This document shows positions 11,859 through 60,528 of a DNA stretch of 64,000 nt, in pieces. The stretch is from contig OZ231126.1 of assembly GCA_965153355.1 (NCBI GenBank), positions 6,510,001-6,574,000 of the forward strand, read 5' to 3'. Under the pieces are notes generated by a model. That model did not search any database. It had not been told where the DNA came from and was given only the letters and a program-made list of their open reading frames with translations. This stretch comes from Flaccisagitta enflata. Its lineage: Eukaryota. The position numbers and the translations under genes are program-made. Positions within the stretch are counted from its first letter, which is position 1. Every line of letters begins with the position of its first letter.

Positions 11859-13458
11859 ATGACTCTCGAAGTCGCTCCTCCGACCTCAATCTCCGTCGAA
11901 AAAAGTTCGGCAAATGATGAAGTTGACGAACTTGTCGTCCATAATTGTAGCAATCCGTCATCAACGCCAGTCACTGTCTCATCCGTTACCTCGTTAGCCC
12001 ATTGTGAACTGTCATCTTCTTCATCCGTCACCCCGTTAGCCCATTGTGAACTGTCAGCTTTTTCATCCAATACCTCGTTAGCCCATTGTGAAGTGTCATC
12101 TTCCTCATCAGTTACCCCGTTAGCCATTTGTGAACTGTCATCAACGCCAGTCACTGTCTCATCCGTTACCTCGTTAGCCAATTGTGAAGTGTCATCTTCC
12201 TCATCCGTCACTCCGTCATCCCACTCAAACTTGTCACTCTCTCCATCTTTCACGTCGTCATCCAAATCTGAGCAACCTCACTCGTCACCCTCATCCACGG
12301 ACGCCCCCTCACCCACCATCTCATCCACCTTCTCAACTCACTCTTCAAATTCTTCCTTCTCCTCAGCCAACCCTTTCTCACTTTTCAACGCCACCGCCGT
12401 TTCCTCCTCCTCGTCCTCCTCTCCCTCGTCATCTTCGTCTTCCTCCTCTTCCTCTTCTTCCTCCTCCTCCTCGTCTTCTAACGACAACGAAACTTACTCC
12501 ACGTGGGGAAGAAGTGACACATTTTGCGTAGAAATAAAGAAGGGCGACGTTCAAAGAAAAGGAGAAATTCCGTTAAGGGTTCGAAAATTGACGAAAATGG
12601 TTTCTACGTCTCGTTTCGATGCAAAAACTGGGCAAAATGTTGATGATGATAATACTCTTGCTACTACGACAACGCTTAATCGCGGTATTATAAAAATCAG
12701 ACGAGATGAGTTTGAAAAAATCAAGTCTGACGGCGATGAAAATATCAAAAACGGTAATGATCGGAAAACAATTCTTGTAACTGATAGGAAACTGATCCAA
12801 AACTGCGACGAAAAATTCCCATCAAGTGATAATCACGAAATTACAGCATTTAATTGTCAAAACATGGCAGCAAACGATGAATACAAAATGGCAGCAAATG
12901 ATAATCAAAAAAAGGCAGCGAAAGTTGATCTCGAAATGACTGTGAATGGCAGTCTAGAAATGGCGACGAACGCCAGTTGGAAACTGACCGCGGACGCGAA
13001 CGCAAACGCAAACGCAAACGCGAACGCGAACGCAAACGCAAACGCAAACGCAAACGCAAACGCAAACGCAAACGCAAACGCAAACGCAAACGCAAACGCG
13101 GACGTCCGTCTAGAGATTACATCAGAGGCCCCTAAGAAAGTTAAATCAAACATCTCGCGAAAAACGACCTCGAACACCCGCCCAAAAAAGTCATCTAACA
13201 TCAATCAAAAAATGACATCCAACATCCATCATAAAGTTACATCAAACACCCACGAGAAAATGACATCAAACACCCGCCAAAAAACGACATCAAACGCCCG
13301 CCAGAAAATGACATCAAACAGCGACGTGAAATTCGATTTTGACGTCGGACGTAAAAACCGGAAGAATGGTCTTTTGTTGGATTTTATCTTCGCTGCCATT
13401 TTTGGCTTCTTCGTATTCGCAGCGCCGCCAAACGTCGACGCGAAACCAACACAAACAT
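11859..13458 (+). CDS. Probable first coding exon (533 codons + 1 nt) of an unidentified gene: Ser/Thr-rich repeats, poly-S, (AN)n, basic 11-aa repeats, then a hydrophobic signal/TM-like segment
   Basis: 1.6-kb open frame in otherwise stop-rich DNA; internal repeats have frame-preserving periods; LLLDFIFAAIFGFFVFAAPPNVDAKP is followed by donor GTATGT at 13459, after which the sequence becomes a (TATCATC)n repeat. Confidence 0.65.
12997..13099 (+). repeat. (AACGCA/AACGCG)n hexamer microsatellite encoding (Asn-Ala)n
   Basis: Directly visible, in frame with the 11859 ORF. Confidence 0.9.
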
Positions 13459-13666
13459 GTATGTTTTTTTTTGGCTGTCATCATATCTATCATCTATCAT
13501 TTATCATCATATCTATCATCTATCATTTATCATTTATCATCTATCATTTATCATCATATCTATCATCTATTTACCATTTACTCCTCGATAATTGACAGCC
13601 CAACGCGGTCAAGGAGCAGAAAGGGGAATTGGTCTTTTGTTTTCCAGCTGAAGAAGACTCTCGCGC

Positions 13667-25115: not shown

Positions 25116-25502
25116 CAAGGCCGGATAAACGGCCCCATTAGCCAAATGTGGTTAGGCAAGGGTAGACAACCAGACAGACATTTAATGATTCAAAAAACAA
25201 CGGACAGACCAACAGACAGACGGACAACAAGACAGAGCAGGCTGAAGAGTCGCGTGCATGAGACTAAGCAAATAAACAAGTGAAGCAGGGTCACAATATC
25301 GTTTTGGACAGGTGGGCAGGGGCATACAACCCCCATCCATTCCCTCATCAACCCCATACTCACTCACATACAGCGACAATCATAACTACAGCGTCATAAA
25401 TGAGCGTTTTTACACTTTCTGACTTGATCACCACGGACAGATTGACGGACGGACGGACAAACAGATGGACAAAGCCTCTTATAGAGTTGCGCGTCCGCAA
25501 CT
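25116..25502 (-). mobile_element. Two adjacent HINE-like copies
   Basis: CAAGGCCGGATAAACGGC..GAGTCGCGTGCATGAGACTAA and CAAGTGAAGCAGGGTCAC..TATAGAGTTGCGCGTCCGCAACTAAAA. Confidence 0.7.
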
Positions 25503-38534: not shown

Positions 38535-39293
38535 CACCGTCTTTAAATCGAAATGGCAAATAGTAAACCTTTGTAGCTCTAAAACTACTAGCCCAAAAGC
38601 CTTCAAATTTTCAGTGAATGTCGGTAACAACTGACCATTTTGTCATGTCCAAACTCGGATTTTAATACTGAATAGTTTGGGGTCAGTAAAACAAACAAGA
38701 TATGCCCAATTTTCAGGGCTGAATTTTTTTTCTTGCTTTATTTGAAAAGACTTGTCTTTATCAATATACAGATGTCAAAAAAATTGAGCTAGAACTCCGG
38801 GGTTGGTCTCAAATGATAGGAAATTTTTCAGAGATTAAACATTTACCTAAAAAATTGAAAAAAGTTGGATATAGATTGAGGTTATCATTGGTTTTTAGCA
38901 ATCATTGCTGAAATCCAAACTGTCAATCATTTGAAAATCATTCAAATCTTCATAAATACAATAAAAAAATGAAATTTTCAAGCAGAACTTTTTTTCATGA
39001 TTCGTAACTCTTCATTTAAGACCAACCCCAGGGTTCAAGTTTGCTTATTCAGGAAAAAAGCATTAAAAGAAAAAAGATTCTTCAAAGTATAGCTGGGACA
39101 AATTTTTTTTCCATTTAATTGATAGCTTTTCAATGCTTTAATGACCCTCAACCTATTCAGTTATAAAATCTGAGTTTTGGCATGACAAAATGGTCAGTTG
39201 TTACTAACATTCACTGAAAATTTGAAGGCTTTTAGGCTAGAAGTTATGGAGCAACAAAGGTTTACAATTTGCCATTTCGATTCAAAGACGGTG
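38535..39293. mobile_element. 759-bp MITE with ~130-bp TIRs and TA TSD; left-truncated second copy at 53427-54142
   Basis: TA|CACCGTCTTTAAATCGAAATGGCAAAT ... ATTTGCCATTTCGATTCAAAGACGGTG|TA; interior colinear with 53427-54142. Confidence 0.9.
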
Positions 39294-39358
39294 TATTTCG
39301 ACTATTTCAACGAATATTTCAAAAATATGTCTTACACTCTGTGGGACTCCTGTACAGT

Positions 39359-41755: not shown

Positions 41756-41834
41756 CGTTTACTACCGCGGCAACCTAATTGCGCGTTTCCACACTTTTCA
41801 ACACAACCAACCAACGATCAGATAGTCTTCCACA

Positions 41835-44250: not shown

Positions 44251-46401
44251 CGTCCACGCACTTTTTTTTTAATGAATGTCATTTTTTAAAAAAAATTCTT
44301 GAAAAAAAAATGAAATTGAAAAGAGATAGAGATAGCTACTACGAAAATTAGCATTTTGAAGCCTTGATGTTCTTATAAAAAAGAGTGAACAAGAGGTCGT
44401 GTCCATTGGTTGGTCAGTCGGTCATGCAAGTGAAATGCGCAAAATGGCCGATTCGTGATTCATTCCTTTATTCATTTATTCACATTGTTCATTCACAAAT
44501 TCTTAATCAGTGAGGAGCATTCATTGGCATTTCTGAAAAAACATTGATAATCGGCGAAATTTCTTATGTGGAATTGAATTATTCTACAGCATTTTTTGGC
44601 CTAATCGGAGAAGCCGCTGCTGTTGTCATTCATTGACCAAACCGTACTATCCGCATCATGGATTTGATACCTATATATCTCTCTCACAAGCTTCACGTGT
44701 GAAATGCAGAGTTCAATACATGCGGAAGCCTTGTTTACTGATGGGGCTTTTTGTCAACAATATCGAGTTTTTCGCATGGGCTCATGCTAGTGGTGATGAG
44801 AAGAAGTTGACTCAGAAAACTGCTCTCTGAAGAAAGAGCTATCATGAAAAACAATGTACAGTATTTTGACTTGAGGACTGGAAATTGAGCTGATGGTCAG
44901 ATTTAAGAGAAAAATCAATTTTTTTATCGTCGTCGATCAAAAAGTTGGAAACAGTTGGATCCAAAAAAATGATAAATGGACTGAGGGGAGTCGAAAGAAA
45001 AAGCAATATAGATCTCAAAGCGTCGACCCTCGTCGGACGGTAACTACATAACGTCAAACATGAAATTTGTAAAGTACCAAAAGACATGGGAGAAACGATT
45101 TCTCGATTATACGGCAAGAATGAGCATCAAATACCGTCTCTGGAAAGGTACATGTTTGTACGTTTTGGTATCCACAGCCCTTATAACTAGACACGCTTTG
45201 TTTGGCAATTTTTTTGATGAAATTATGGGAGAGATGTAGGAACTAATTTTTGGCAAATTACGCTTACCAGCTATTGTAAAGAGTGTTTCCCGATGTTTTG
45301 GGCGCATTTTTGAAATTTCAGTTTTACCCTACGACTGATTCCACGAAATTGGCTCATGTTTTCAAAGTGTTGTGGTGATTTTTCAAGAAGTATTTGTCTT
45401 ACCACACTAGAAATAGAATTGCTTTTATTAGATGAACAGAATAAGTACTCTACTTCATAGCATTGTTTTCAACCAAATTACCTCCATAGGATTAAAACCG
45501 ACCAACGAAGAATGCAACCTATTTCAAGCTTTTTACAAAACAACTTTCGTTTGATGAAAATATTAGAAAAAAAATTCTAAACCAGTTTGAAAAATAACTT
45601 TGAAATGATGAAATGAACAGTTCATTTTTTTTGCTATTGCTACTAGGAGTATCATACTTGTTTGCTTCTCATGTTTAAACTAAAACAAGTGACGCGGGGT
45701 CACAGTATCGTCGCGGACAGGTGGGTAGGGGCATCCGACTCCTATCCACGCCCCAAACCCAACTCCATACACAAACGTGCAAAGAAAGAATCCAAAACGC
45801 TCATTTTTCCACTTCTACTCTCAATCACCACGGACCGACACACGTAGATCGGAGAGTGTACCATAACAGGTCAAAAATATAAGCCAGTGCCTAGAGATGA
45901 CAGCTTTGGCATAAAAATGTTCTTAAGTATGTGTAGATCACACCTATATGGGGTTTTGCCTGCGTCATGATTCATCTAGGGACATTTTTTTGCTCTTGAA
46001 CTCAGTAGGTTCAACATTTTGGAGGCTCTGAATGGACAAGATTTTTTTCATCTGAGATTGGAATTTTGCGAGTTTTTTTTTAATAGGTCCTACAAATTTA
46101 GGAGCAGGCTTACCAAATTTTACACATGGCGTATTCAATCAATCCTGAACCTTTGCTAAAGATTTGGCATCCTCCCTCTTATCATAAGTACCATTTTTCA
46201 TTTCTAGAATAGTACCATATGAAATGGAAAAAACATTTTTTGCCGCATTTTAATTTCAGAGAAGTAGTTAACTTCAAGGGGCAAAAAGAGGCTTTGGATT
46301 AGCTATGACGCAGGTAAAACCATATGTTTTCTTGCTCAGGGTAAGCAACTGTACTAGTTTCAGCCGTTTGTTTAAGTCAAAAGTGCCAGCATAATTTTTT
46401 T

Positions 46402-46562
46402 AGTTGCGGACACGCAACTCTATAAGAGGCTTTGTCCGTCCGTCCGTTGGTCGGTTGGTCGGTTGGTTGGTTGGTCCGTCACGCTCAAGTTGAAAAGTGG
46501 GAAAACGTGCAATTCCGCCCCTGCCCACCCGTCCGCAACTGATGGCCGTGTATCCGGCCTTG
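46402..46562 (+). mobile_element. Complete short HINE-like copy (AGTTGCGGAC subfamily)
   Basis: AGTTGCG-GACA-CGCAACT hairpin, (GTCC/GTTG)n, subterminal GTCCGCAACT, GGCCGTGTATCCGGCC hairpin, TTG|TTT. Confidence 0.85.
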
Positions 46563-53426: not shown

Positions 53427-54142
53427 AAACTACTAGCCCAAAAGCCTTCAGATTTTCAGTGAATGTTGGCAACAACTGACCATTTTGTCATGTCCAAACT
53501 CAGATTTTAATACTGAATAGTTTGGCGTCAGTAAAACAAACAAAATATGCCTAATTTTCGAGGCTGAATCTTTTTTTTTCTTGCTTTATTTGAGAAGACT
53601 TGTCTTTATCAATATACAGATGTCAAAAAAATTGAGCTAACACTCCGGGGTTAGCCTCAAATGATAGGAAATTTTTCAGAGATTACACATTTACGTAAAA
53701 AATTAGAAATAGTTGGATATGAATTGAGGTTATCATTGGTTTTTGGCAATCTTTGCTAAAATCCAGACTGTCAATCATTAGAAAATCATTCAAATCTTCA
53801 TAAATACAATAGAATAATGAAATTTTCAAGCAGAATTTATATTCATGATTTGTAACTATTCATTTAAGACCAACCCCAGGGTTCAAGCTTGCTTAATCAG
53901 GAAAAAAGCAATAAAAAAAAAAAATTCTTCTAAGTATAGCTGGGACAAATTGATTTTTTCCATAAAATTGATAGCATTTCAATGCTTTAATGACCCCCAG
54001 CCTATTCAGTTACAAAATCTGAGTTTTGGCATGACAAAATGGTCAGTTGTTACCAACATTCACTCAAAATTTGAAGGCTTTTGGGCTAGTAGTTTTGGAG
54101 CTACAAAGGTTTACTATTTGCCATTTTGATTTAAAGACGGTG
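53427..54142. mobile_element. Left-truncated copy of the 38535 MITE
   Basis: Colinear high similarity; intact right TIR ...TTTAAAGACGGTG|TA. Confidence 0.85.
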
Positions 54143-54419
54143 TACATTGGTTAGAATCGGAATTTCATTGCTGGCAGATTCGTAAAAGCGGGGTTCAAAT
54201 GTGATTCAAAAGCGCTCAGCGCTGAGAAATTAAACAGAAACAAACCAAGTCAATCAGCTGCGGCAATTGCATTGCTAGCTTTGCAACAGATGGACAGACC
54301 AAATGTATTGAGTCAGACGCAAATCAACAAGAACAAGTGACGCGGGGTCACAATATTGTTGCGGACGGGTGGGCAGGGGCGTGTAACCCTCATCCACACC
54401 TTCACCCACCCTACACACA

Positions 54420-56620
54420 GTCGCATTAAGCTTGACCTCGATTCTATCCTCTAAGGGTATGGTTTCTTAACAATGTTACCCTCGGGTGATTTGTTGAATT
54501 TTGGTTAAAGAAGTAACAATCATTGCCCTGACTACTTTTGGTAAGCAGTTTGCTTTTGGGTTAGATTGAGAAGGAATGGTTTTCAGATTCTGTTTTATGG
54601 AAAACTAGGAGTGGTGCGCGTATTAAGTAGTCAGTGAGGGTTCACAAGGCCCTCTTCCGTTTATTTCAGTTTGGGTATAGTGAGGGATATTGTTCCACTT
54701 TTCATACTACTCAGTACCTTGGATTGGAATGTCCGGCGGTCGCATTAAGCTTGACCTCGATTCTATCCTCTAAGGGTATGGTTTCTTAACAATGTTACCC
54801 TCGGGTGATTTGTTGAATTTTGGTTAAAGAAGTAACAATCATTGCCCTGACTACTTTTGGTAAGCAGTTTGCTTTTGGGTTAGATTGAGAAGGAATGGTT
54901 TTCAGATTCTGTTTTATGGAAAACTAGGAGTGGTGCGCGTATTAACTAGTCAGTGAGGGTTCACAAGGCCCTCTTCCGTTTATTTCAGTTTGGGTATAGT
55001 GAGGGATATTGTTCCACTTTTCATACTACTCAGTACCTTGGATTGGAATGTCCGGCGGTCGCATTAAGCTTGACCTCGATTCTATCCTCTAAGGGTATGG
55101 TTTCTTAACAATGTTACCCTCGGGTGATTTGTTGAATTTTGGTTAAAAAGTAACAATCATTGCCCTGACTACTTTTGGTAAGCAGTTTGCTTTTGGGTTA
55201 GATTGAGAAGGAATGTTTTTCAGATTCTGTTTTATGGAAAACTAGGAGTGGTGCGCGTATTAACTAGTCAGTGAGGGTTCACAAGGCCCTCTTCCGTTTA
55301 TTTCAGTTTGGGTATAGTGAGGGATATTGTTCCACTTTTCATACTACTCAGTGCCTTGGATTGGAATGTCCGGCGGTCGCATTAAGCTTGACCTCGATTC
55401 TATCCTCTAAGGGTATGGTTTCTTAACAATGTTACCCTCGGGTGATTTGTTGAATTTTGGTTAAAGAAGTAACAATCATTGCCCTAACTACTTTTGGTAA
55501 GCAGTTTGCTTTTGGGTTAGATTGAGAAGGAATGGTTTTCAGATTCTGTTTTATGGAAAATTAGGAGTGGTGCGCGTATTAACTAGTCAGTGAGGGTTCA
55601 CAAAGCCCTCTTCCGTTTATTTCAGTTTGGGTATAGTGAGGGATATTGTTCCACTTTTCATACTACTCAGTACCTTGGATTGGAATGTCCGGCGGTCGCA
55701 TTAAGCTTGACCTCGATTCTATCCTCTAAGGGTATGGTTTCTTAACAATGTTACCCTCGGATGATTTGTTGAATTTTGGTTAAAGAAGTAACAATCATTG
55801 CCCTGACTACTTTTGGTAAGCAGTTTGCTTTTGGGTTAGATTGAGAAGGAATGGTTTTCAGATTCTGTTTTATGGAAAACTAGGAGTGGTGCGCGTATTA
55901 ACTAGTCAGTGAGGGTTCACAAGGCCCTCTTCCGTTTATTTCAGTTTGGGTATAGTGAGGGATATTGTTCCACTTTTCATACTACTCAGTACCTTGGATT
56001 GGAATGTCCGGCGGTCGCATTAAGCTTGACCTCGATTCTATCCTCTAAGGGTATGGTTTCTTAACAATGTTACCCTCGGGTGATTTGTTGAATTTTGGTT
56101 AAAGAAGTAACAATCATTGCCCTGACTACTTTTGGTAAGCAGTTTGCTTTTGGGTTAGATTGAGAAGGAATGGTTTTCAGATTCTGTTTTATGGAAAACT
56201 AGGAGTGGTGCGCGTATTAACTAGTCAGTGAGGGTTCACAAGGCTCTCTTCCGTTTATTTCAGTTTGGGTATAGTGAGGGATATTGTTCCACTTTTCATA
56301 CTACTCAGTGCCTTGGATTGGAATGTCCGGCGGTCGCATTAAGCTTGACCTCGATTCTATCCTCTAAGGGTATGGTTTCTTAACAATGTTACCCTCGGAT
56401 GATTTGTTGAATTTTGGTTAAAGAAGTAACAATCATTGCCCCAACTACTTTTGGTAAGCAGTTTGCTTTTGGGTTAGATTGAGAAGGAATGGTTTTCAGA
56501 TTCTGTTTTATGGAAAACTAGGAGTGGTGCGCGTATTAACTAGTCAGTGAGGGTTCACAAGGCCCTCTTCCGTTTATTTCAGTTTGGGTATAGTGAGGGA
56601 TATTGTTCCACTTTTCATAC
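54420..56620 (+). repeat. 319-bp tandem array, 6.9 near-identical copies; candidate twister retrozyme
   Basis: GTCGCATTAAGCTTGACC starts at 54420, 54739, 55058, 55376, 55695, 56014, 56333; only scattered single-base differences. Confidence 0.97.
54916..54979 (+). ncRNA. Candidate type-P5 twister ribozyme (copy 2 of 7; others start at 54597, 55234, 55553, 55872, 56191, 56510)
   Basis: AUGGAA(P5)-AA-CUAG(P2')-GAGUG-GUGCGCGUAU(P1)-U|AA-CUAG(P2)-UC-AGU-GAGGG(P4)-U-UCACAAGG(L4)-CCCUC(P4')-UUCCGU(P5'); pseudoknots GU/AC and UC/GG can both pair. Manual folding only. Confidence 0.7.
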
Positions 56621-56928
56621 AAATACAAAGACAAAGACAACTGCAGCATCAAAAATGCGCATTCCCACACTTTTCAACTCGATCATGACGGACGTAAGGA
56701 TGGACGGATGGAAAGATGGACGGACGGAATGGGGGATAGACGGAGAGAAGAAAGAGTGAAAGTAATGTTGAAAGAAGGAAAAGAGAGGAATTTGAAAGAT
56801 AACAAGAAATAGGTATTGAAAAGTAACAAGGCTGGATAAACGGCTACACCAGTCGCTTTCAGGTGGGCAGGGGAAGTATTTCAGTGAGTAGAGCATTTGA
56901 TCAGTAACGGTATGGCGACAGACGGAAG

Positions 56929-57524: not shown

Positions 57525-59349
57525 AAAAATCCCATAAAATGTAGTATCCTAGCCGCGTTAAACAAAAAAGTACACTTTTTCACTTTTTTTAACACAAAAT
57601 ACGCACAAAGATGGACCTGAAACCCATATTACCCCAGAAAACCCCATGAATTTTTTTTCACAATTTGATAGCCCTATTAGGGTAGTTTCCAGGACCACTG
57701 TCAAAATACTCGGACTCGGGCGGGCTTTTAGTCGTTTTTGACCAGATTTGCCAGAAAATCAAAAATGACAAAAATGACAAAAATCAAATTTGAATATCTA
57801 CAACCAAAATTTAGCTGACGCCATAAATTTTTAGGGGAACACCTACCCTGACATGGTGTTTCTAAAACCAACAGTTGAAATTTTTTTTTAATATGCATAC
57901 CAGCCCAACTGACCTATCACTTAAAAATTGAAAAAACATATTTTTTTTTGGCTGTTTTGCTCTTATTGTCTCCAAATTTTGCATGAGGGTTGTCACTGAC
58001 CCTAGAAACTATTTGCATATGCTATAGCTGATCGAATCGATGATACTCGCCAAAATACTATACACAAAAAAAACATGATTTTGGGTGAAATTATCCAAAA
58101 TTTTTGGAAAAGTCAAAAATGGTCAATTATCAGTTCAGTTATTTCCATATTGTAAACAAAACAAAAAAACAAAAAAATTCATCTCAAATTTTTTTGTTTA
58201 CAGCACTTTTTAGGTGAAAAAAGCTTATTTTTAGCATTTTTTTGGTAAAAAATTGTTTATGCAGCTTCAAAAATCTCCATTAATCCTGGAAATGTGTGGC
58301 AATAGTCTGGATATACACATTTTTACCTGTAACAACAAGTTTTTTTTACATATTTTTTAGATAAGAGCTTAAAAATAGCCTAAAAATAGCAAAATATTGC
58401 TTTTTTCAGCGTTTTTAAGTTTTTTCATGTTAATGAAGCATAAAAACTAAAAAAAAGTTCTAGAAATGTATAGTATTAGTCCGAGTATAAATACTTATGC
58501 CCTGAATAACCAGTTATTCATGATAGTTTTGGGTTTAAAGCCTAAAAATAGCTTAAGAAGAACAAAATATGGCTTTTTTTAGCATTTTTGAGCAAAAAAT
58601 AGTTTGTGCAGCTGTATTTATCCAGAAAAAATCCTTATAATGTGTAGTTATAGTTTGAGTAAAGATACTTTTACCCAGAACAACCAGTTGTTGGGGATTT
58701 TTTAAAGTTTAAAGATCAAAAATGCTGAAAAAACCATATTTTATCATTTCTAAGCTATTTTTAAGCTCTAATTTGTATGTTATTTCAAAAAACATGTTGT
58801 GAAGGGTTAAAATGTGTATATTCAAACTATTGCCTCACATTTTCAGTATTAATTAGAATTTTCAAAGCTCAAAAAAAAATTTTAAGCCAAAAAAAATGTT
58901 AAAAATAACTTTTTTCTACCAAGAGAGTTATATAAATGAAAAAATTTAAGATAAATTTATTTGTTTTTTTGTTTTTTTAGTATCCCACATGACACAGTGG
59001 CAAAAACGGTCTTTTCATACCTCTTGGGGGCGTATCCAGAGAGGTGTGATAATCCAATACAATTAATTTTCATTATTGGAAAAAACTAGTCTATGTAGCT
59101 AGTGTTACAATTTTGTCGCGGATGAATGGGCAAGGGCTTCCAAATTCCCCCCCCCCCCACTCATACACCTCTTCAACAATTGTTTTTCCACTTTCCGACT
59201 TACTCACAAACCAGCAGACTGACTGACTAACAGATGAACCAACGGACGGACACAGCCTCTTATAGATTCGTGAATCCGCGACAAGAAACGTACAAGTTTG
59301 AAAATAGAATGGAATGGATCAGGTAGTAGGTGAATGAGACAAAAGTAAG

Positions 59350-60528
59350 AAAGTGTGAAAATAGTCATATTTACGGCATTTTACGGCAAAAAATGACACT
59401 GAATGACAACAGCTTCACTCGATTTTTGGTAAGAATTTGTCCCAGATCCAAACTATTAGTGTTTGACCCTTTGCTACCTATTAGAGCTGTTTTAAAACAT
59501 TTACAACTTAAGAAAGTGTGAAAATAGCCATTTTTACGGCATTTTACGGCGAAAAATGACACTGAATGACAACGGCTCCACTCAATTTTTGGCAAGAGTA
59601 TGTCCCAGAGCCAAACCATCAGTGTTTGACCCTTTGCCACCCATTACAGCTGTTTTAAAACATTAAAGACCTAAAAAGTGTGAAAATAGCCATTTTTACG
59701 GCAAGAAATGACACTACATGACAACGGGTCCACTCAATATTTGGCATAAGTATGTCCCAGAGCCAAACCATTTGTTTGACCCTTGGCCGCCTATTACAGC
59801 TGCTTTAAAACATGAACAACTTAAAAAAAGTGTGAAAATAGCCATTTTTACGGCATTTTACGTCAAAAAAATGACACTGAACGTCAATGGCTTCACTCGA
59901 TTTTTGGTAAGAATTTGTCTCAGAGCCAAACTATTATTGTTTGACCCTTTGCTTCCTATTAGAGCTGTTTTAAAACATTTAAGACTAAAAAAAGTGTGAA
60001 AATAACCATTTTTACGGCATTTTACGGCAAAAAATGACACTGAATGATGACAGCTCCACTCGATTTTTGGCAAGAGTATGTTCCAGAGCCAAACCATTAG
60101 TATTTGACCCTTTTCCACCTATTACAGCTGTTTTTAAACAATAACAACTTATGAAAGTGTGAAAATAGCCATTTTTACGGCATTTTACGGCAAAAGATGA
60201 CACTGAATGATGATGGCTCCACTCAATTTTTGGTAAGAGTATGTCCGAGCGCCAAACCATTAGTGTTTTACCCATTGCCACCTTATACAGCTGTTTTAAA
60301 ACAATAACGACCTAAAAAAGTGTGAAAATAGCCATTTTTACGGCTTTTTACGGCAAAAAAAGACGCTGAATGATGACGGTTTCACTCGATCTTTGGTATG
60401 AGTATATCTCAGAGCCACACAGTTACTGTATGACCGTTCGCCAACCATAACACCTTTTTTTTAACATCATCAACCTGAAAACTGGCAAAAATGTCATTAT
60501 TACGTAATTTTACGGCATTTTACGGCAC
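59350..60528. repeat. ~163-bp satellite (~7 diverged copies)
   Basis: AAGTGTGAAAATA recurs at 59351, 59514, 59676, 59828, 59992, 60155, 60318. Confidence 0.92.

What the first reader, a model, noticed from the sequence alone, without database searches (positions are those of the whole stretch)
54420..56620. 319-bp tandem array with a type-P5 twister ribozyme in every monomer: candidate twister retrozyme / circular RNA element
Seen: 6.9 almost identical 319-bp units without a credible ORF. Each contains AUGGAAAACUAGGAGUGGUGCGCGUAUUAACUAGUCAGUGAGGGUUCACAAGGCCCUCUUCCGU. Established: the twister core is P1-U|AA-P2-NC...P4-loop(UYNNAAGN)-P4'...P2'-GANNR-P1', with two pseudoknots and circular permutations P1/P3/P5. 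By hand this motif gives P2 CUAG/CUAG, GA followed by GU that pairs with AC of the L4 loop, UC pairing with GG, P4 GAGGG/CCCUC, and closing P5 AUGGAA/UUCCGU. The predicted cut is U|A (54943/54944 in copy 2). Established: metazoan non-LTR retrozymes are non-coding tandem repeats of a few hundred bp with one self-cleaving ribozyme per unit, mostly hammerheads, and give monomeric circRNAs. Inference: transcription here would release 319-nt monomers that could circularise, and the array is an integrated rolling-circle reverse transcript. Caveats: one extra U before L4, a U-G pair in one pseudoknot, and a very short P1.
Basis: partly seen in the sequence, partly recalled or inferred. Interest (0 to 1): 0.93.

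Follow-up and report, generated by a model that had tools for sequence, protein, structure and literature searches.

The report
Twister-like ribozyme in a tandem repeat
A 319-base non-coding repeat, very abundant in a marine eukaryote, carries in each unit a sequence that fits the twister self-cutting RNA almost feature for feature, which would make it the twister counterpart of the hammerhead-bearing repeats that give small circular RNAs in animals, but cutting is untested.

Summary
The array is real: 319 bp x 6.9 copies, 98% alike, at 54420-56620, non-coding, 41% GC. All three Rfam twister models miss it, even at E<=10 on the 76-nt motif alone. A descriptor written from the published twister architecture still matches 5 of 7 units and nothing else in the window. 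Its chance expectation is about 7e-6 per window, or 4.5e-7 if P5 is also required. All 23 model pairs, both pseudoknots included, are standard pairs.

Public contigs show a very abundant family: 19,702 contigs in one DNA run, 80-100% alike. Its common variants avoid all 37 critical twister positions (P about 0.01). Hundreds of copies end at one monomer position before A/T-rich sequence. Family contigs also occur in two RNA libraries.

Against activity: one extra nucleotide in loop L4, a G-U pair in T2, a 3-bp P1, and a competing nested fold 6-7 kcal/mol more stable.

Verdict: probably a divergent type-P5 twister in a retrozyme-like mobile repeat, a new variant of a known kind. Cleavage and circular RNA are unproven.

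The parts
54420..56620 (+). Tandem array, 319-bp unit x 6.9, non-coding, 41% GC
   Evidence: TRF; unit phases and 13 differences among copies; no frame over 52 aa; GC
54597..54660 (+). Twister-like motif, copy 1. A C>G change in P2 (54627) breaks one P2 pair, so the descriptor fails. Predicted cut 54624|54625
54916..54979 (+). Twister-like motif, copy 2 (reference). P5 54916-21/54974-79; AA 54922-23; P2' 54924-27; GA 54928-29; T1' 54930-32; P1 hairpin 54933-42; U54943|A54944 A54945; P2 54946-49; L2 UC 54950-51; junction 54952-54; P4 54955-59/54969-73; extra nucleotide 54960; U54961; T1 54962-64; AA 54965-66; T2 54967-68
   Evidence: descriptor match; all 23 pairs standard; architecture
55234..55297 (+). 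Twister-like motif, copy 3, intact; predicted cut 55261|55262
55553..55616 (+). Twister-like motif, copy 4. C>T in P2' keeps a U-G pair. G>A at the conserved L4 G breaks T2, so the descriptor fails. Predicted cut 55580|55581
55872..55935 (+). Twister-like motif, copy 5, intact; predicted cut 55899|55900
56191..56254 (+). Twister-like motif, copy 6. C>T in P4' gives a G-U pair and the descriptor still matches. Predicted cut 56218|56219
56510..56573 (+). Twister-like motif, copy 7, intact; predicted cut 56537|56538
54980..55026 (+). 47-nt tail downstream of the motif (copy 2 coordinates). Motif plus tail (54916-55026) is the best-covered part of the family and ends where many family copies end
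   Evidence: depth steps up at bin 54912-54922; loose ends 'before 54916' and 'behind 55024-55026'
56621..56656 (+). A-rich stretch directly after the array. The array stops at the monomer position equivalent to 55026, the shared 3' end of the family
   Evidence: sequence; table 7
54326..54419 (+). Context only: a short dispersed repeat module abutting the left end of the array. It holds GGTGGGCAGGGG and is about 80-87% like 25275-25362 and 45678-45732

Best explanation
Each 319-bp unit encodes, on the + strand, a divergent type-P5 member of the twister class of self-cleaving ribozymes. It lacks P3, has a minimal P1 hairpin and carries one extra nucleotide in L4.

Shown: the array; the fit of sequence and pairings to the twister architecture; the very high copy number and sequence spread of the family in one organism's DNA; a shared 3' end in many copies; presence in contigs of RNA libraries.

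Inferred:
- Read-through transcripts of the array fold so that P2, P4, P5 and the pseudoknots T1 and T2 place U54943|A54944 in the active site.
- G54928, the G of the GA motif, acts as the catalytic guanine.
- Cleavage releases 319-nt monomers with 5'-OH and 2',3'-cyclic phosphate ends.
- The ribozyme halves at the two ends of a monomer re-pair through P5, P2 and T1 and bring the ends together, so an RtcB-type ligase or the reverse reaction can close a circle.
- The family spreads as a non-autonomous retroelement with a fixed 3' end, the twister counterpart of hammerhead non-LTR retrozymes.
For: 1. Descriptor. It was written from Table 1 of PMC8501958 and the structural review PMC5408937. It requires: UAA; P2 of exactly four Watson-Crick pairs; L2 NC; P4 closed by G-C; a conserved U; T1 of three Watson-Crick pairs; AA; T2 of two pairs; GA; and AA before P2'. 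It hits 5 of 7 units and nothing else on either strand of the 64 kb.
2. Chance rate. From 4 Mb of Markov-random sequence the expectation is 7e-6 per 128 kb without P5, 4.5e-7 with P5, and 3.6e-8 per monomer. All liberties used were counted: a 1-nt insertion, G-U allowed in T2 and P4, and a free P1.
3. Pairing. 23 of 23 model pairs are standard in the consensus and 97.8% of cells are paired, against 36-51% when the partners are slid.
4. Departures from the usual letters are compensated. The T1 middle pair is A-U where the usual pair is C-G. L2 U pairs with L4 G where the usual pair is G with C.
5. Family variation (X1 = 19,702 contigs laid). Variants at 5% or more fall at 54917 and 54978 (one P5 pair, which becomes U-A in 97% of depth), at 54933 and 54942 (P1), and at 54960 (the extra L4 nucleotide). 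None falls in the 37 critical positions, P = 0.0106. The adjacent tail has 7 of 47 such positions, Fisher P = 0.014.
6. G54957>A and C54971>T are the two sides of one P4 pair. They have similar frequencies in each run and the same depth (7.27, one contig each) in X17.
7. Family homology begins at 54916, the first base of P5 (loose ends 'before 54916': 87 in X1, 24 in X3, 2 in X17). It ends at 55024-55026 before A/T-rich sequence (566 loose ends in X1, 96 in X3 and 4 in X17, shown rows only), as this array does.
8. Contigs of RNA libraries X11 (129 laid) and X17 (32 laid) hold the family. One contig in each bridges a unit junction.
9. Habitat. Non-coding tandem units of about 300 bp with low GC are where animal hammerhead retrozymes live. 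P1 is dispensable for twister cleavage and about 20% of twisters lack P3.
Against: - No Rfam twister model (P1, P3 or P5) reports the motif at gathering score, at E<=10 on 1 kb, or at E<=10 on 76 nt. The only hit is a 9.5-bit hairpin match to Ocean-VII on P4/L4.
- L4 has one nucleotide more than the canonical 9-nt loop. The alternative reading is one fewer, with position 60 pairing to G68. Position 60 is polymorphic U/C in the family.
- T2 has a G-U pair. P1 is three pairs, two of them G-U, and the commonest RNA-library variant (A54933 with G54942) loses one pair.
- The nested part of the twister fold scores -10.1 to -11.8 kcal/mol against an MFE of -17.6 kcal/mol that uses a competing pairing of the P2 strands.
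- Neither the motif nor the monomer folds better than shuffles (z = -1.04, -0.74, -0.14), unlike rod-like or branched retrozyme circles.
- In this array 4 of 13 substitutions lie in the motif and 2 of 7 units are disabled, so there is no local constraint.
- Over the whole 64-nt motif the density of variable sites equals the rest of the unit (5 of 64 against 23 of 255, P = 1.0).
- The variant table shows only 41 of 82 rows.
- Transcription is not shown. DNA can be present in RNA libraries and no silent control stretch could be laid.
- No related copy could be fetched as sequence, so no proper covariation test was possible.
Confidence: 0.5

Rival explanations
1. Twister by descent but now inert. 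The motif came from a working twister, for instance the head of a non-LTR element. The present family is a satellite amplified at the DNA level by unequal exchange or replication slippage, with no self-cleavage and no circular RNA.
For: The L4 insertion, the G-U pair in T2 and the weak P1 could each cripple the fold. The Rfam models miss it. There is no local constraint, with 2 of 7 units disabled. The window is full of other tandem arrays, 54 TRF rows of score 200 or more, so arrays arise readily in this genome. Fold z-scores are ordinary.
Against: Across a family with copies down to 80% identity, no variant at 5% or more touches the 37 critical positions (P about 0.01). The deviations from the usual twister letters are pairwise compensated. 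A shared 3' end before A/T-rich sequence in hundreds of copies points to mobility, not only to array dynamics.
Confidence: 0.2
2. Active twister used for end-processing of a short non-LTR retroposon, not for making circles. The mobile unit would be the module of about 111 nt (motif plus 47-nt tail, 54916-55026) with an A-rich tail. It would be mobilised by a LINE, as twister variants serve Perere-3 (RTE) in Schistosoma. The 319-bp array would be a secondary expansion.
For: The module has its own boundaries in the family: loose ends before 54916 and behind 55024-55026, the latter followed by A/T-rich sequence. Its summed depth is 2.7-fold (X1) to about 28-fold (X11) that of the left part of the unit. 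Twister variants at the 5' ends of RTE elements are documented.
Against: In a type-P5 arrangement the cut lies inside the motif. A processed RNA would begin at A54944 and lose P5, P2' and the GA strand, so copies would be dead. The family boundary is at 54916, not 54944. The sequence before 54916 in the other subfamily is itself a consensus (agreement 0.54-1.0), not random flank. The tool warns that contig depth cannot rank parts of a stretch.
Confidence: 0.13
3. Chance look-alike. This is an ordinary satellite whose unit happens to be threadable as a twister.
For: There is no covariance-model support. The threading was made after seeing the sequence and needs three concessions. Many windows are scanned in this project, so rare coincidences will surface.
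Against: The expected chance matches are 7e-6 per window, or 3.6e-8 per monomer, with every concession counted. The rest of the window has 0 matches to even the 5' half of the descriptor. The variant pattern and the family boundary at the first base of P5 fit the model.
Confidence: 0.12
4. tRNA-derived SINE head. GGAGTGGTG (54927-35) would be an A box and GGTTCACAAGGCC (54957-69) a B box or T arm, followed by a tail and an A-rich end.
For: The spacing of about 30 nt between the two box-like strings, a 5' boundary some 10 nt upstream, and A-rich ends resemble SINEs. The box consensus sequences are recalled, not taken from a call.
Against: ARAGORN finds no tRNA-like gene in the window. The Rfam tRNA model gives nothing at E<=10. 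The T-loop would have 9 nt instead of 7. The twister descriptor explains far more of the sequence.
Confidence: 0.03

Closest known systems
Twister self-cleaving ribozyme class, type P5 permutation (Rfam twister-P5, -P1 and -P3; architecture as in review PMC5408937, passages read, and Table 1 of PMC8501958, section read). The founding paper, Roth et al. 2014, is not held and is only recalled.
   Same: UAA at the cut; P2 of exactly four Watson-Crick pairs; GA after P2'; AA before P2'; L2 with C; P4 closed by G-C; L4 with U, three T1 nucleotides, AA and G; T1 of three Watson-Crick pairs; T2 of two pairs; P3 replaced by a short junction, as in about 20% of twisters; termini in P5.
   Different: One extra nucleotide in L4, polymorphic U/C. 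L1 reads GAGUG where the examples read GAGGG, with a compensating A in L4. L2 reads UC where the usual is GC, with L4 G making a G-U pair. P1 is only a 3-bp hairpin. No Rfam model scores it. Activity is untested.
Metazoan non-LTR retrozymes: tandem repeats with type I hammerheads that give small circRNAs (Cervera and de la Pena 2020, PMC7229834, passages read; preprint 10.64898/2026.07.22.740005, abstract read).
   Same: Non-coding tandem units within the published 150-450 bp range (here 319 bp), GC below 45% (here 41%), multimers (here 6.9), one ribozyme motif per unit, high copy number, and presence in RNA libraries.
   Different: The motif is twister-like, not a hammerhead. No hammerhead is found on either strand. 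Circular RNA is not shown. The predicted monomer fold is not unusually stable. No link to Penelope-like elements was seen.
Twister variants (T-variants) at the 5' end of Perere-3/RTE retrotransposons of Schistosoma mansoni (Liu et al. 2021, PMC8501958; abstract, introduction and one results section read). See also the remark on truncated twisters in RTE elements in PMC7761336 (passages read).
   Same: A twister-class motif tied to a highly repeated, probably RNA-mobilised element. These are twisters that standard searches had missed.
   Different: Those are type P1 with the cut at the very 5' end of a coding LINE. Here the motif is type P5, the cut is internal, and the element is a non-coding tandem unit.
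Twister-bearing viroid-like circular RNAs from metatranscriptomes (Lee et al., bioRxiv 10.1101/2022.07.19.500677, passages read).
   Same: Small RNAs with a twister in one polarity are reported there (930 asymmetric clusters). The present family also turns up in marine metatranscriptome contigs.
   Different: The passages read name only twister-P1. Those RNAs were detected by Rfam-type models and are taken as RNA replicons without a DNA stage. This family is encoded as DNA in a eukaryote genome and escapes the models.

Membership tests
Twister ribozyme (Rfam twister-P5 / -P1 / -P3) | Covariance-model score at or above the family's gathering score | tested here: not met
   0 hits at gathering on the whole window. 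0 twister hits at E<=10 on 1,001 nt and on 76 nt.
Twister ribozyme (Rfam twister-P5 / -P1 / -P3) | Conserved loop nucleotides: (U)AA at the cut, GA and AA around P2', C in L2, U..AAG in L4 | tested here: met
   Descriptor matched in 5 of 7 units. Which ten nucleotides are more than 97% conserved was not seen in a call; only that they lie in L1 and L4.
Twister ribozyme (Rfam twister-P5 / -P1 / -P3) | P2 of exactly four Watson-Crick pairs and P4 closed by an invariant G-C | tested here: met
   CUAG/CUAG, and GAGGG/CCCUC with G54959-C54969.
Twister ribozyme (Rfam twister-P5 / -P1 / -P3) | Double pseudoknot: T1 (three Watson-Crick pairs, L4 with L1) and T2 (two pairs, L4 with L2) | tested here: met
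   T1 is GUG/CAC, all Watson-Crick. T2 is C-G plus U-G. This is pairing potential only; formation was not tested.
Twister ribozyme (Rfam twister-P5 / -P1 / -P3) | Canonical L4 length and register (9-nt loop as in Table 1 of PMC8501958) | tested here: not met
   One extra nucleotide (54960, U/C polymorphic) between the closing G and the conserved U. The descriptor matches only with the insertion allowed.
Twister ribozyme (Rfam twister-P5 / -P1 / -P3) | Site-specific Mg2+-dependent self-cleavage 5' of the conserved A | not testable with these tools
   Needs transcription and cleavage assays.
Metazoan non-LTR retrozyme | Non-coding tandem units of about 150-450 bp, low GC, dimers to large multimers | tested here: met
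   319 bp x 6.9, 41% GC, no frame over 52 aa. Definition.
Metazoan non-LTR retrozyme | A type I hammerhead ribozyme in each unit | tested here: not met
   No hammerhead family on either strand at E<=10.
Metazoan non-LTR retrozyme | Expressed as monomer-length linear and circular RNA | tested here: inconclusive
   Family contigs occur in RNA libraries X11 and X17, and one contig in each bridges a unit junction. Contigs cannot show ends or circles, and no DNA control was laid.
Metazoan non-LTR retrozyme | Target-site duplications, when present | tested here: not met
   The only flanking direct repeat is a 12-mer at 54368 and 56862. It belongs to a dispersed repeat present 15 times in the window.
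tRNA-derived SINE | tRNA-like head recognisable by tRNA models | tested here: not met
   ARAGORN finds 0 genes. There is no Rfam tRNA hit at E<=10.

The most novel reading that the evidence does not exclude
This is the first retrozyme-type element built on a twister instead of a hammerhead. It would be a very abundant, mobile, non-coding 319-nt unit of a widespread marine eukaryote that cuts itself out of array transcripts, circularises and is copied back into DNA from a fixed 3' end. Its type-P5 twister with an enlarged L4 loop is invisible to the current Rfam models, which would imply that more such ribozyme-bearing satellites are being missed.
Probability: 0.33. Interest if true: 0.8.

Novelty: new variant of a known kind. 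Interest (0 to 1): 0.62.

Why it matters
In the papers I read, all retrozymes described in DNA genomes carry hammerheads. The only biological role those papers tie to eukaryotic twisters is 5' processing of an RTE element in one flatworm.

A twister-bearing, circle-forming tandem repeat would show that a second ribozyme class was recruited independently for the same life style. It would also give a natural type-P5 twister with an altered L4 loop for structure-function work. And it would show that model-based screens miss part of twister diversity.

The family is abundant and is held by 20 public marine runs of 13 studies, so it is easy to test in existing samples. If it proves inactive, it is a well-documented example of a ribozyme relic turned satellite.

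Tried and rejected
1. Rfam: gathering threshold on the whole window, E<=10 on 54400-55400, and E<=10 on 54910-54985. No ribozyme family appeared; the only hit was a 9.5-bit Ocean-VII hairpin.
2. Whole-genome searches: no genome is held for this window.
3. Related copies as sequence: an anchor outside the motif and a motif pattern with free P4 in metagenome contigs gave 0 and 0. The motif pattern gave 0 in viral contigs and 0 in genome contigs. blastn and nhmmer of the monomer against the rest of the window found nothing. No covariation analysis on divergent copies was therefore possible. The seven local copies show none.
4. Earlier notes of this scan: nothing on this genome, sequence or topic.
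5. tRNA-SINE idea: rejected.
6. Target-site duplication: the 12-mer flanking the array is part of a dispersed repeat, so it was rejected.
7. Thermodynamics: no signal for motif or monomer on either strand. The nested twister fold is less stable than the MFE. This is uninformative for a pseudoknotted ribozyme.
8. Organism: 7 long frames gave no Pfam family. The longest frame is low-complexity and a six-frame survey found nothing coding-like.
They are no evidence of expression.
10. RNA-library contigs ending at 54937-54945 (table 8) sit beside polymorphic sites and cannot be read as RNA ends.
11. Roth et al. 2014 could not be read by DOI or PMC id.
12. Supplementary lists could not be seen: the T-variant lists of PMC8501958 and the cccRNA sets of the 2022 preprint. 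Either might already contain this family.
13. Print search: no paper describing a genomic tandem repeat or retrozyme with a twister turned up in the searches.
Full report
**Observation**

Tandem Repeats Finder reports one array at 54420-56620: period 319, 6.9 copies, 98% matches. The units begin at 54420, 54739, 55058, 55376, 55695, 56014 and 56333. They differ at 13 places in all.

The array is non-coding. No stop-to-stop frame inside it exceeds 52 aa. It is 41% G+C.

Copies 1, 4 and 6 carry one, two and one substitutions. No other copy of the unit lies elsewhere in the window.

The window as a whole is crowded with unrelated tandem arrays, 54 TRF rows of score 200 or more. A tandem array is therefore ordinary here. 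Everything turns on the motif.

**The standard test is negative**

cmscan against all 4,227 Rfam families finds nothing at gathering score in the window. It finds nothing at E<=10 in 54400-55400. On the 76-nt motif alone it finds only a 9.5-bit match of the P4/L4 hairpin to Ocean-VII.

So none of the three twister models recognises the motif, and no hammerhead, HDV-like, hairpin, pistol or hatchet model does either. ARAGORN finds no tRNA-like gene.

Folding energies are unremarkable: z = -1.04 for the motif, -0.74 and -0.14 for the monomer on the two strands.

**The architecture test is positive**

- Table 1 of Liu et al. 2021 (PMC8501958) gives P1 | UAA | P2 | GC | P3 | P4 | L4 GUCCCAAGC | P4' | GUAAA | P2' | GAGGG | P1'.
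- The review PMC5408937 states that P2 has exactly four Watson-Crick pairs and that the conserved GC in L2 makes T2. P4 is closed by an essentially invariant G-C followed by a conserved U. T1 has three Watson-Crick pairs. P3 is absent in about 20% of twisters, P1 is not needed for efficient cleavage, and permuted types P1, P3 and P5 exist.

The motif threads onto this as type P5:
- P5: 54916-21 with 54974-79
- AA: 54922-23
- P2' CUAG: 54924-27
- GA: 54928-29
- T1 strand GUG: 54930-32
- P1 hairpin: 54933-42
- cut site: U54943|A54944, then A54945
- P2 CUAG: 54946-49
- L2 UC: 54950-51
- junction AGU: 54952-54
- P4 GAGGG: 54955-59 with CCCUC 54969-73
- extra nucleotide: 54960
- conserved U: 54961
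- T1 strand CAC: 54962-64
- AA: 54965-66
- T2 strand GG: 54967-68

Where the letters depart from the usual ones, the partner departs too. The middle T1 pair is U-A instead of G-C. L2 U pairs with L4 G where G normally pairs with C.

All 23 pairs of this model are standard pairs in the consensus. 97.8% of cells are paired, against 36-51% with slid partners. That control is weak because the model was fitted to this sequence.

**Could it be chance?**

I coded the architecture as a descriptor and counted every liberty the motif needs. These were a 1-nt insertion on either side of the conserved U, G-U allowed in T2 and P4, a free 4-40-nt P1 segment, and a 1-12-nt junction.

The descriptor matches 5 of 7 units. 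Copy 1 fails on a P2 mismatch, and copy 4 on the conserved L4 G. It matches nothing else on either strand of the window, with or without P5.

Rates of the two halves were measured on 4 Mb of first-order Markov sequence trained on the window. Combined, they give an expectation of 7e-6 matches per 128 kb, 4.5e-7 if a 4-bp P5 is required, and 3.6e-8 per monomer. The real window outside the array has 0 hits to the 5' half and 11 to the 3' half, in line with the random rate.

Even after a generous factor for other ribozyme classes and permutations, coincidence is unlikely.

**Family-wide evidence**

Twenty public runs of 13 studies hold the unit. They are marine or seawater metagenomes, plus two runs labelled with a coded organism. 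Six of the 20 are RNA libraries.

I laid one monomer (54780-55098) against Logan contigs of four runs: X1 (DNA, organism A), X3 (DNA metagenome), X11 and X17 (metatranscriptomes). The contigs laid numbered 19,702, 2,360, 129 and 32. In X1 their identities spread as 3,334 at 99% or more, 6,420 at 95-99%, 6,935 at 90-95% and 3,013 below 90%. This is a very abundant, old and diversified family.

- **Tandem junctions are common.** 'Goes back 319' occurs in 36 contigs in X1, 8 in X3 and 1 in X17. 'Goes back 318' occurs in 1 contig in X11.
- **Depth steps up at the motif.** The step lies at bin 54912-54922. Loose ends show that homology in another subfamily starts exactly at 54916, the first base of P5 (87 in X1, 24 in X3, 2 in X17).
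- **Many copies share a 3' end.** They stop at 55024-55026 before A/T-rich, poorly agreeing sequence: 124 + 264 + 178 in X1, 62 + 34 in X3, and 4 in X17. The window's own array stops at the equivalent of 55026, followed by an A-rich stretch. A shared 3' end of this kind is what a mobile, probably RNA-copied, element leaves. Random array edges would not give it.
- **Variants avoid the critical positions.** Variants reaching 5% of depth in X1 within the motif are at 54917 and 54978 (the two sides of one P5 pair; A at 54978 in 97%, making U-A), at 54933 and 54942 (P1), and at 54960 (the extra L4 nucleotide, C in 40-59%). None of the 37 positions that the twister model treats as critical varies at that level. 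If the five sites fell at random in the 64 nt, that would have probability 0.0106. The adjacent 47-nt tail has 7 such positions (Fisher P = 0.014), and the rest of the unit 23 of 255 (P = 0.039).
- **A possible compensatory change.** G54957>A and C54971>T, partners in P4, occur at similar low frequencies in each run. In X17 they have the same depth in one contig each.

Caveats apply:
- The table prints 41 of 82 variant rows.
- Depths are sums over contigs.
- Linkage between variants is not shown.
- Taken as a whole, the motif is no less variable than the rest of the unit (5 of 64 against 23 of 255).
- C54917 (9%) must mostly sit opposite A54978, a mismatch.

**What is not shown**

- Contigs cannot reveal RNA ends, strand or circularity.
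- The tool warns that DNA can be present in RNA libraries. Transcription is a hint, not a result.
- The twister's nested helices score -10.1 to -11.8 kcal/mol against an MFE of -17.6 kcal/mol in which the P2 strands pair otherwise. Tertiary pairs are not modelled, so this counts only mildly against.
- Within this array there is no sign of constraint: 4 of 13 substitutions are in the motif, and two of those are disabling. That is expected of young, neutrally drifting copies.
- No divergent copy could be fetched as sequence. No genome is held.

**Mechanism proposed (inference)**

Array transcripts would be cut at each U|A into 319-nt units with 5'-OH and cyclic-phosphate ends. The two ends of a unit carry the two halves of the ribozyme, which can re-pair (P5, P2, T1) and present the ends for ligation.

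The passage read notes that tandem twister constructs have been used to make RNA circles in mammalian cells. The P1 segment GUGCGCGUAU is nearly self-complementary, so pairing between two units is conceivable. I did not test this.

How the DNA copies arise is open. The fixed 3' end argues for copying from a defined point on the RNA.

**Comparison with the literature**

Animal non-LTR retrozymes are tandem, low-GC, non-coding units of 150-450 bp with a type I hammerhead, and are expressed as circles (PMC7229834, passages; a 2026 preprint, abstract). This array meets the repeat features and fails the hammerhead feature.

Twister variants process the 5' end of Perere-3/RTE in Schistosoma. A review mentions truncated twisters in RTE elements. 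Those are type P1 at the start of a coding LINE.

Twister-bearing circular RNAs are numerous in metatranscriptomes, and the passages read name only twister-P1.

My searches and the passages read from a November 2026 paper of the same field turned up no genomic tandem repeat with a twister. Supplementary lists that might contain one could not be opened.

**Verdict**

| Reading | My estimate |
|---|---|
| The motif is a twister-class structure by design or descent | about 0.75 |
| Consensus copies self-cleave | about 0.5-0.55 |
| Full retrozyme-like circle cycle | about one third |

It is best filed as a new variant of a known kind. It is worth a simple cleavage assay.

Noticed in passing
window 9843, 22356, 22715, 25311, 26462, 26707, 37652, 41435, 41841, 45720, 46518, 54368, 56862, 57417, 60885: The 12-mer GGTGGGCAGGGG occurs 15 times at up to 1 mismatch, against 0.09 expected. 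It sits inside two kinds of short dispersed module of about 95-110 nt. One begins AACAAGTGACGCGGGGTCAC and the other AACAAGGCCGGATACACGGC. Several copies lie next to tandem arrays, including both sides of the 319-bp array. Their nature is unknown.
   Followed up: partly
window 53427-54144 and 38582-39295: A repeat of about 720 bp, 92% alike between the two places, with terminal inverted repeats of about 112 bp (53427-53538 against 53983-54095). It looks like a non-autonomous DNA transposon and lies 275 bp left of the array.
   Followed up: no
whole window: Unusual density of unrelated mini- and microsatellite arrays: 54 TRF rows of score 200 or more, with periods from 2 to 319. None of the others matches an Rfam family or the twister descriptor.
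   Followed up: partly
window 59346-60517: A second long-period array, 163 bp x 7.3 at 81% matches. It is older than the 319-bp array and was not examined further.
   Followed up: no
window 11859-13595 (+): A 578-aa open frame made largely of Ser-rich and (Ala-Asn)n low-complexity runs and 14-residue repeats. It has no Pfam family and is probably a by-product of tandem repeats rather than a gene.
   Followed up: partly
window 56657-56700, 41780-41810, about 46440-46500 (minus strand): A recurring segment (GCGCATTCCCACACTTTTCAAC... followed by short GACGGA- or CCAACC-type repeats) lies right of the array and near two other copies of the 12-mer modules. This suggests a larger composite repeat.
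   Followed up: no
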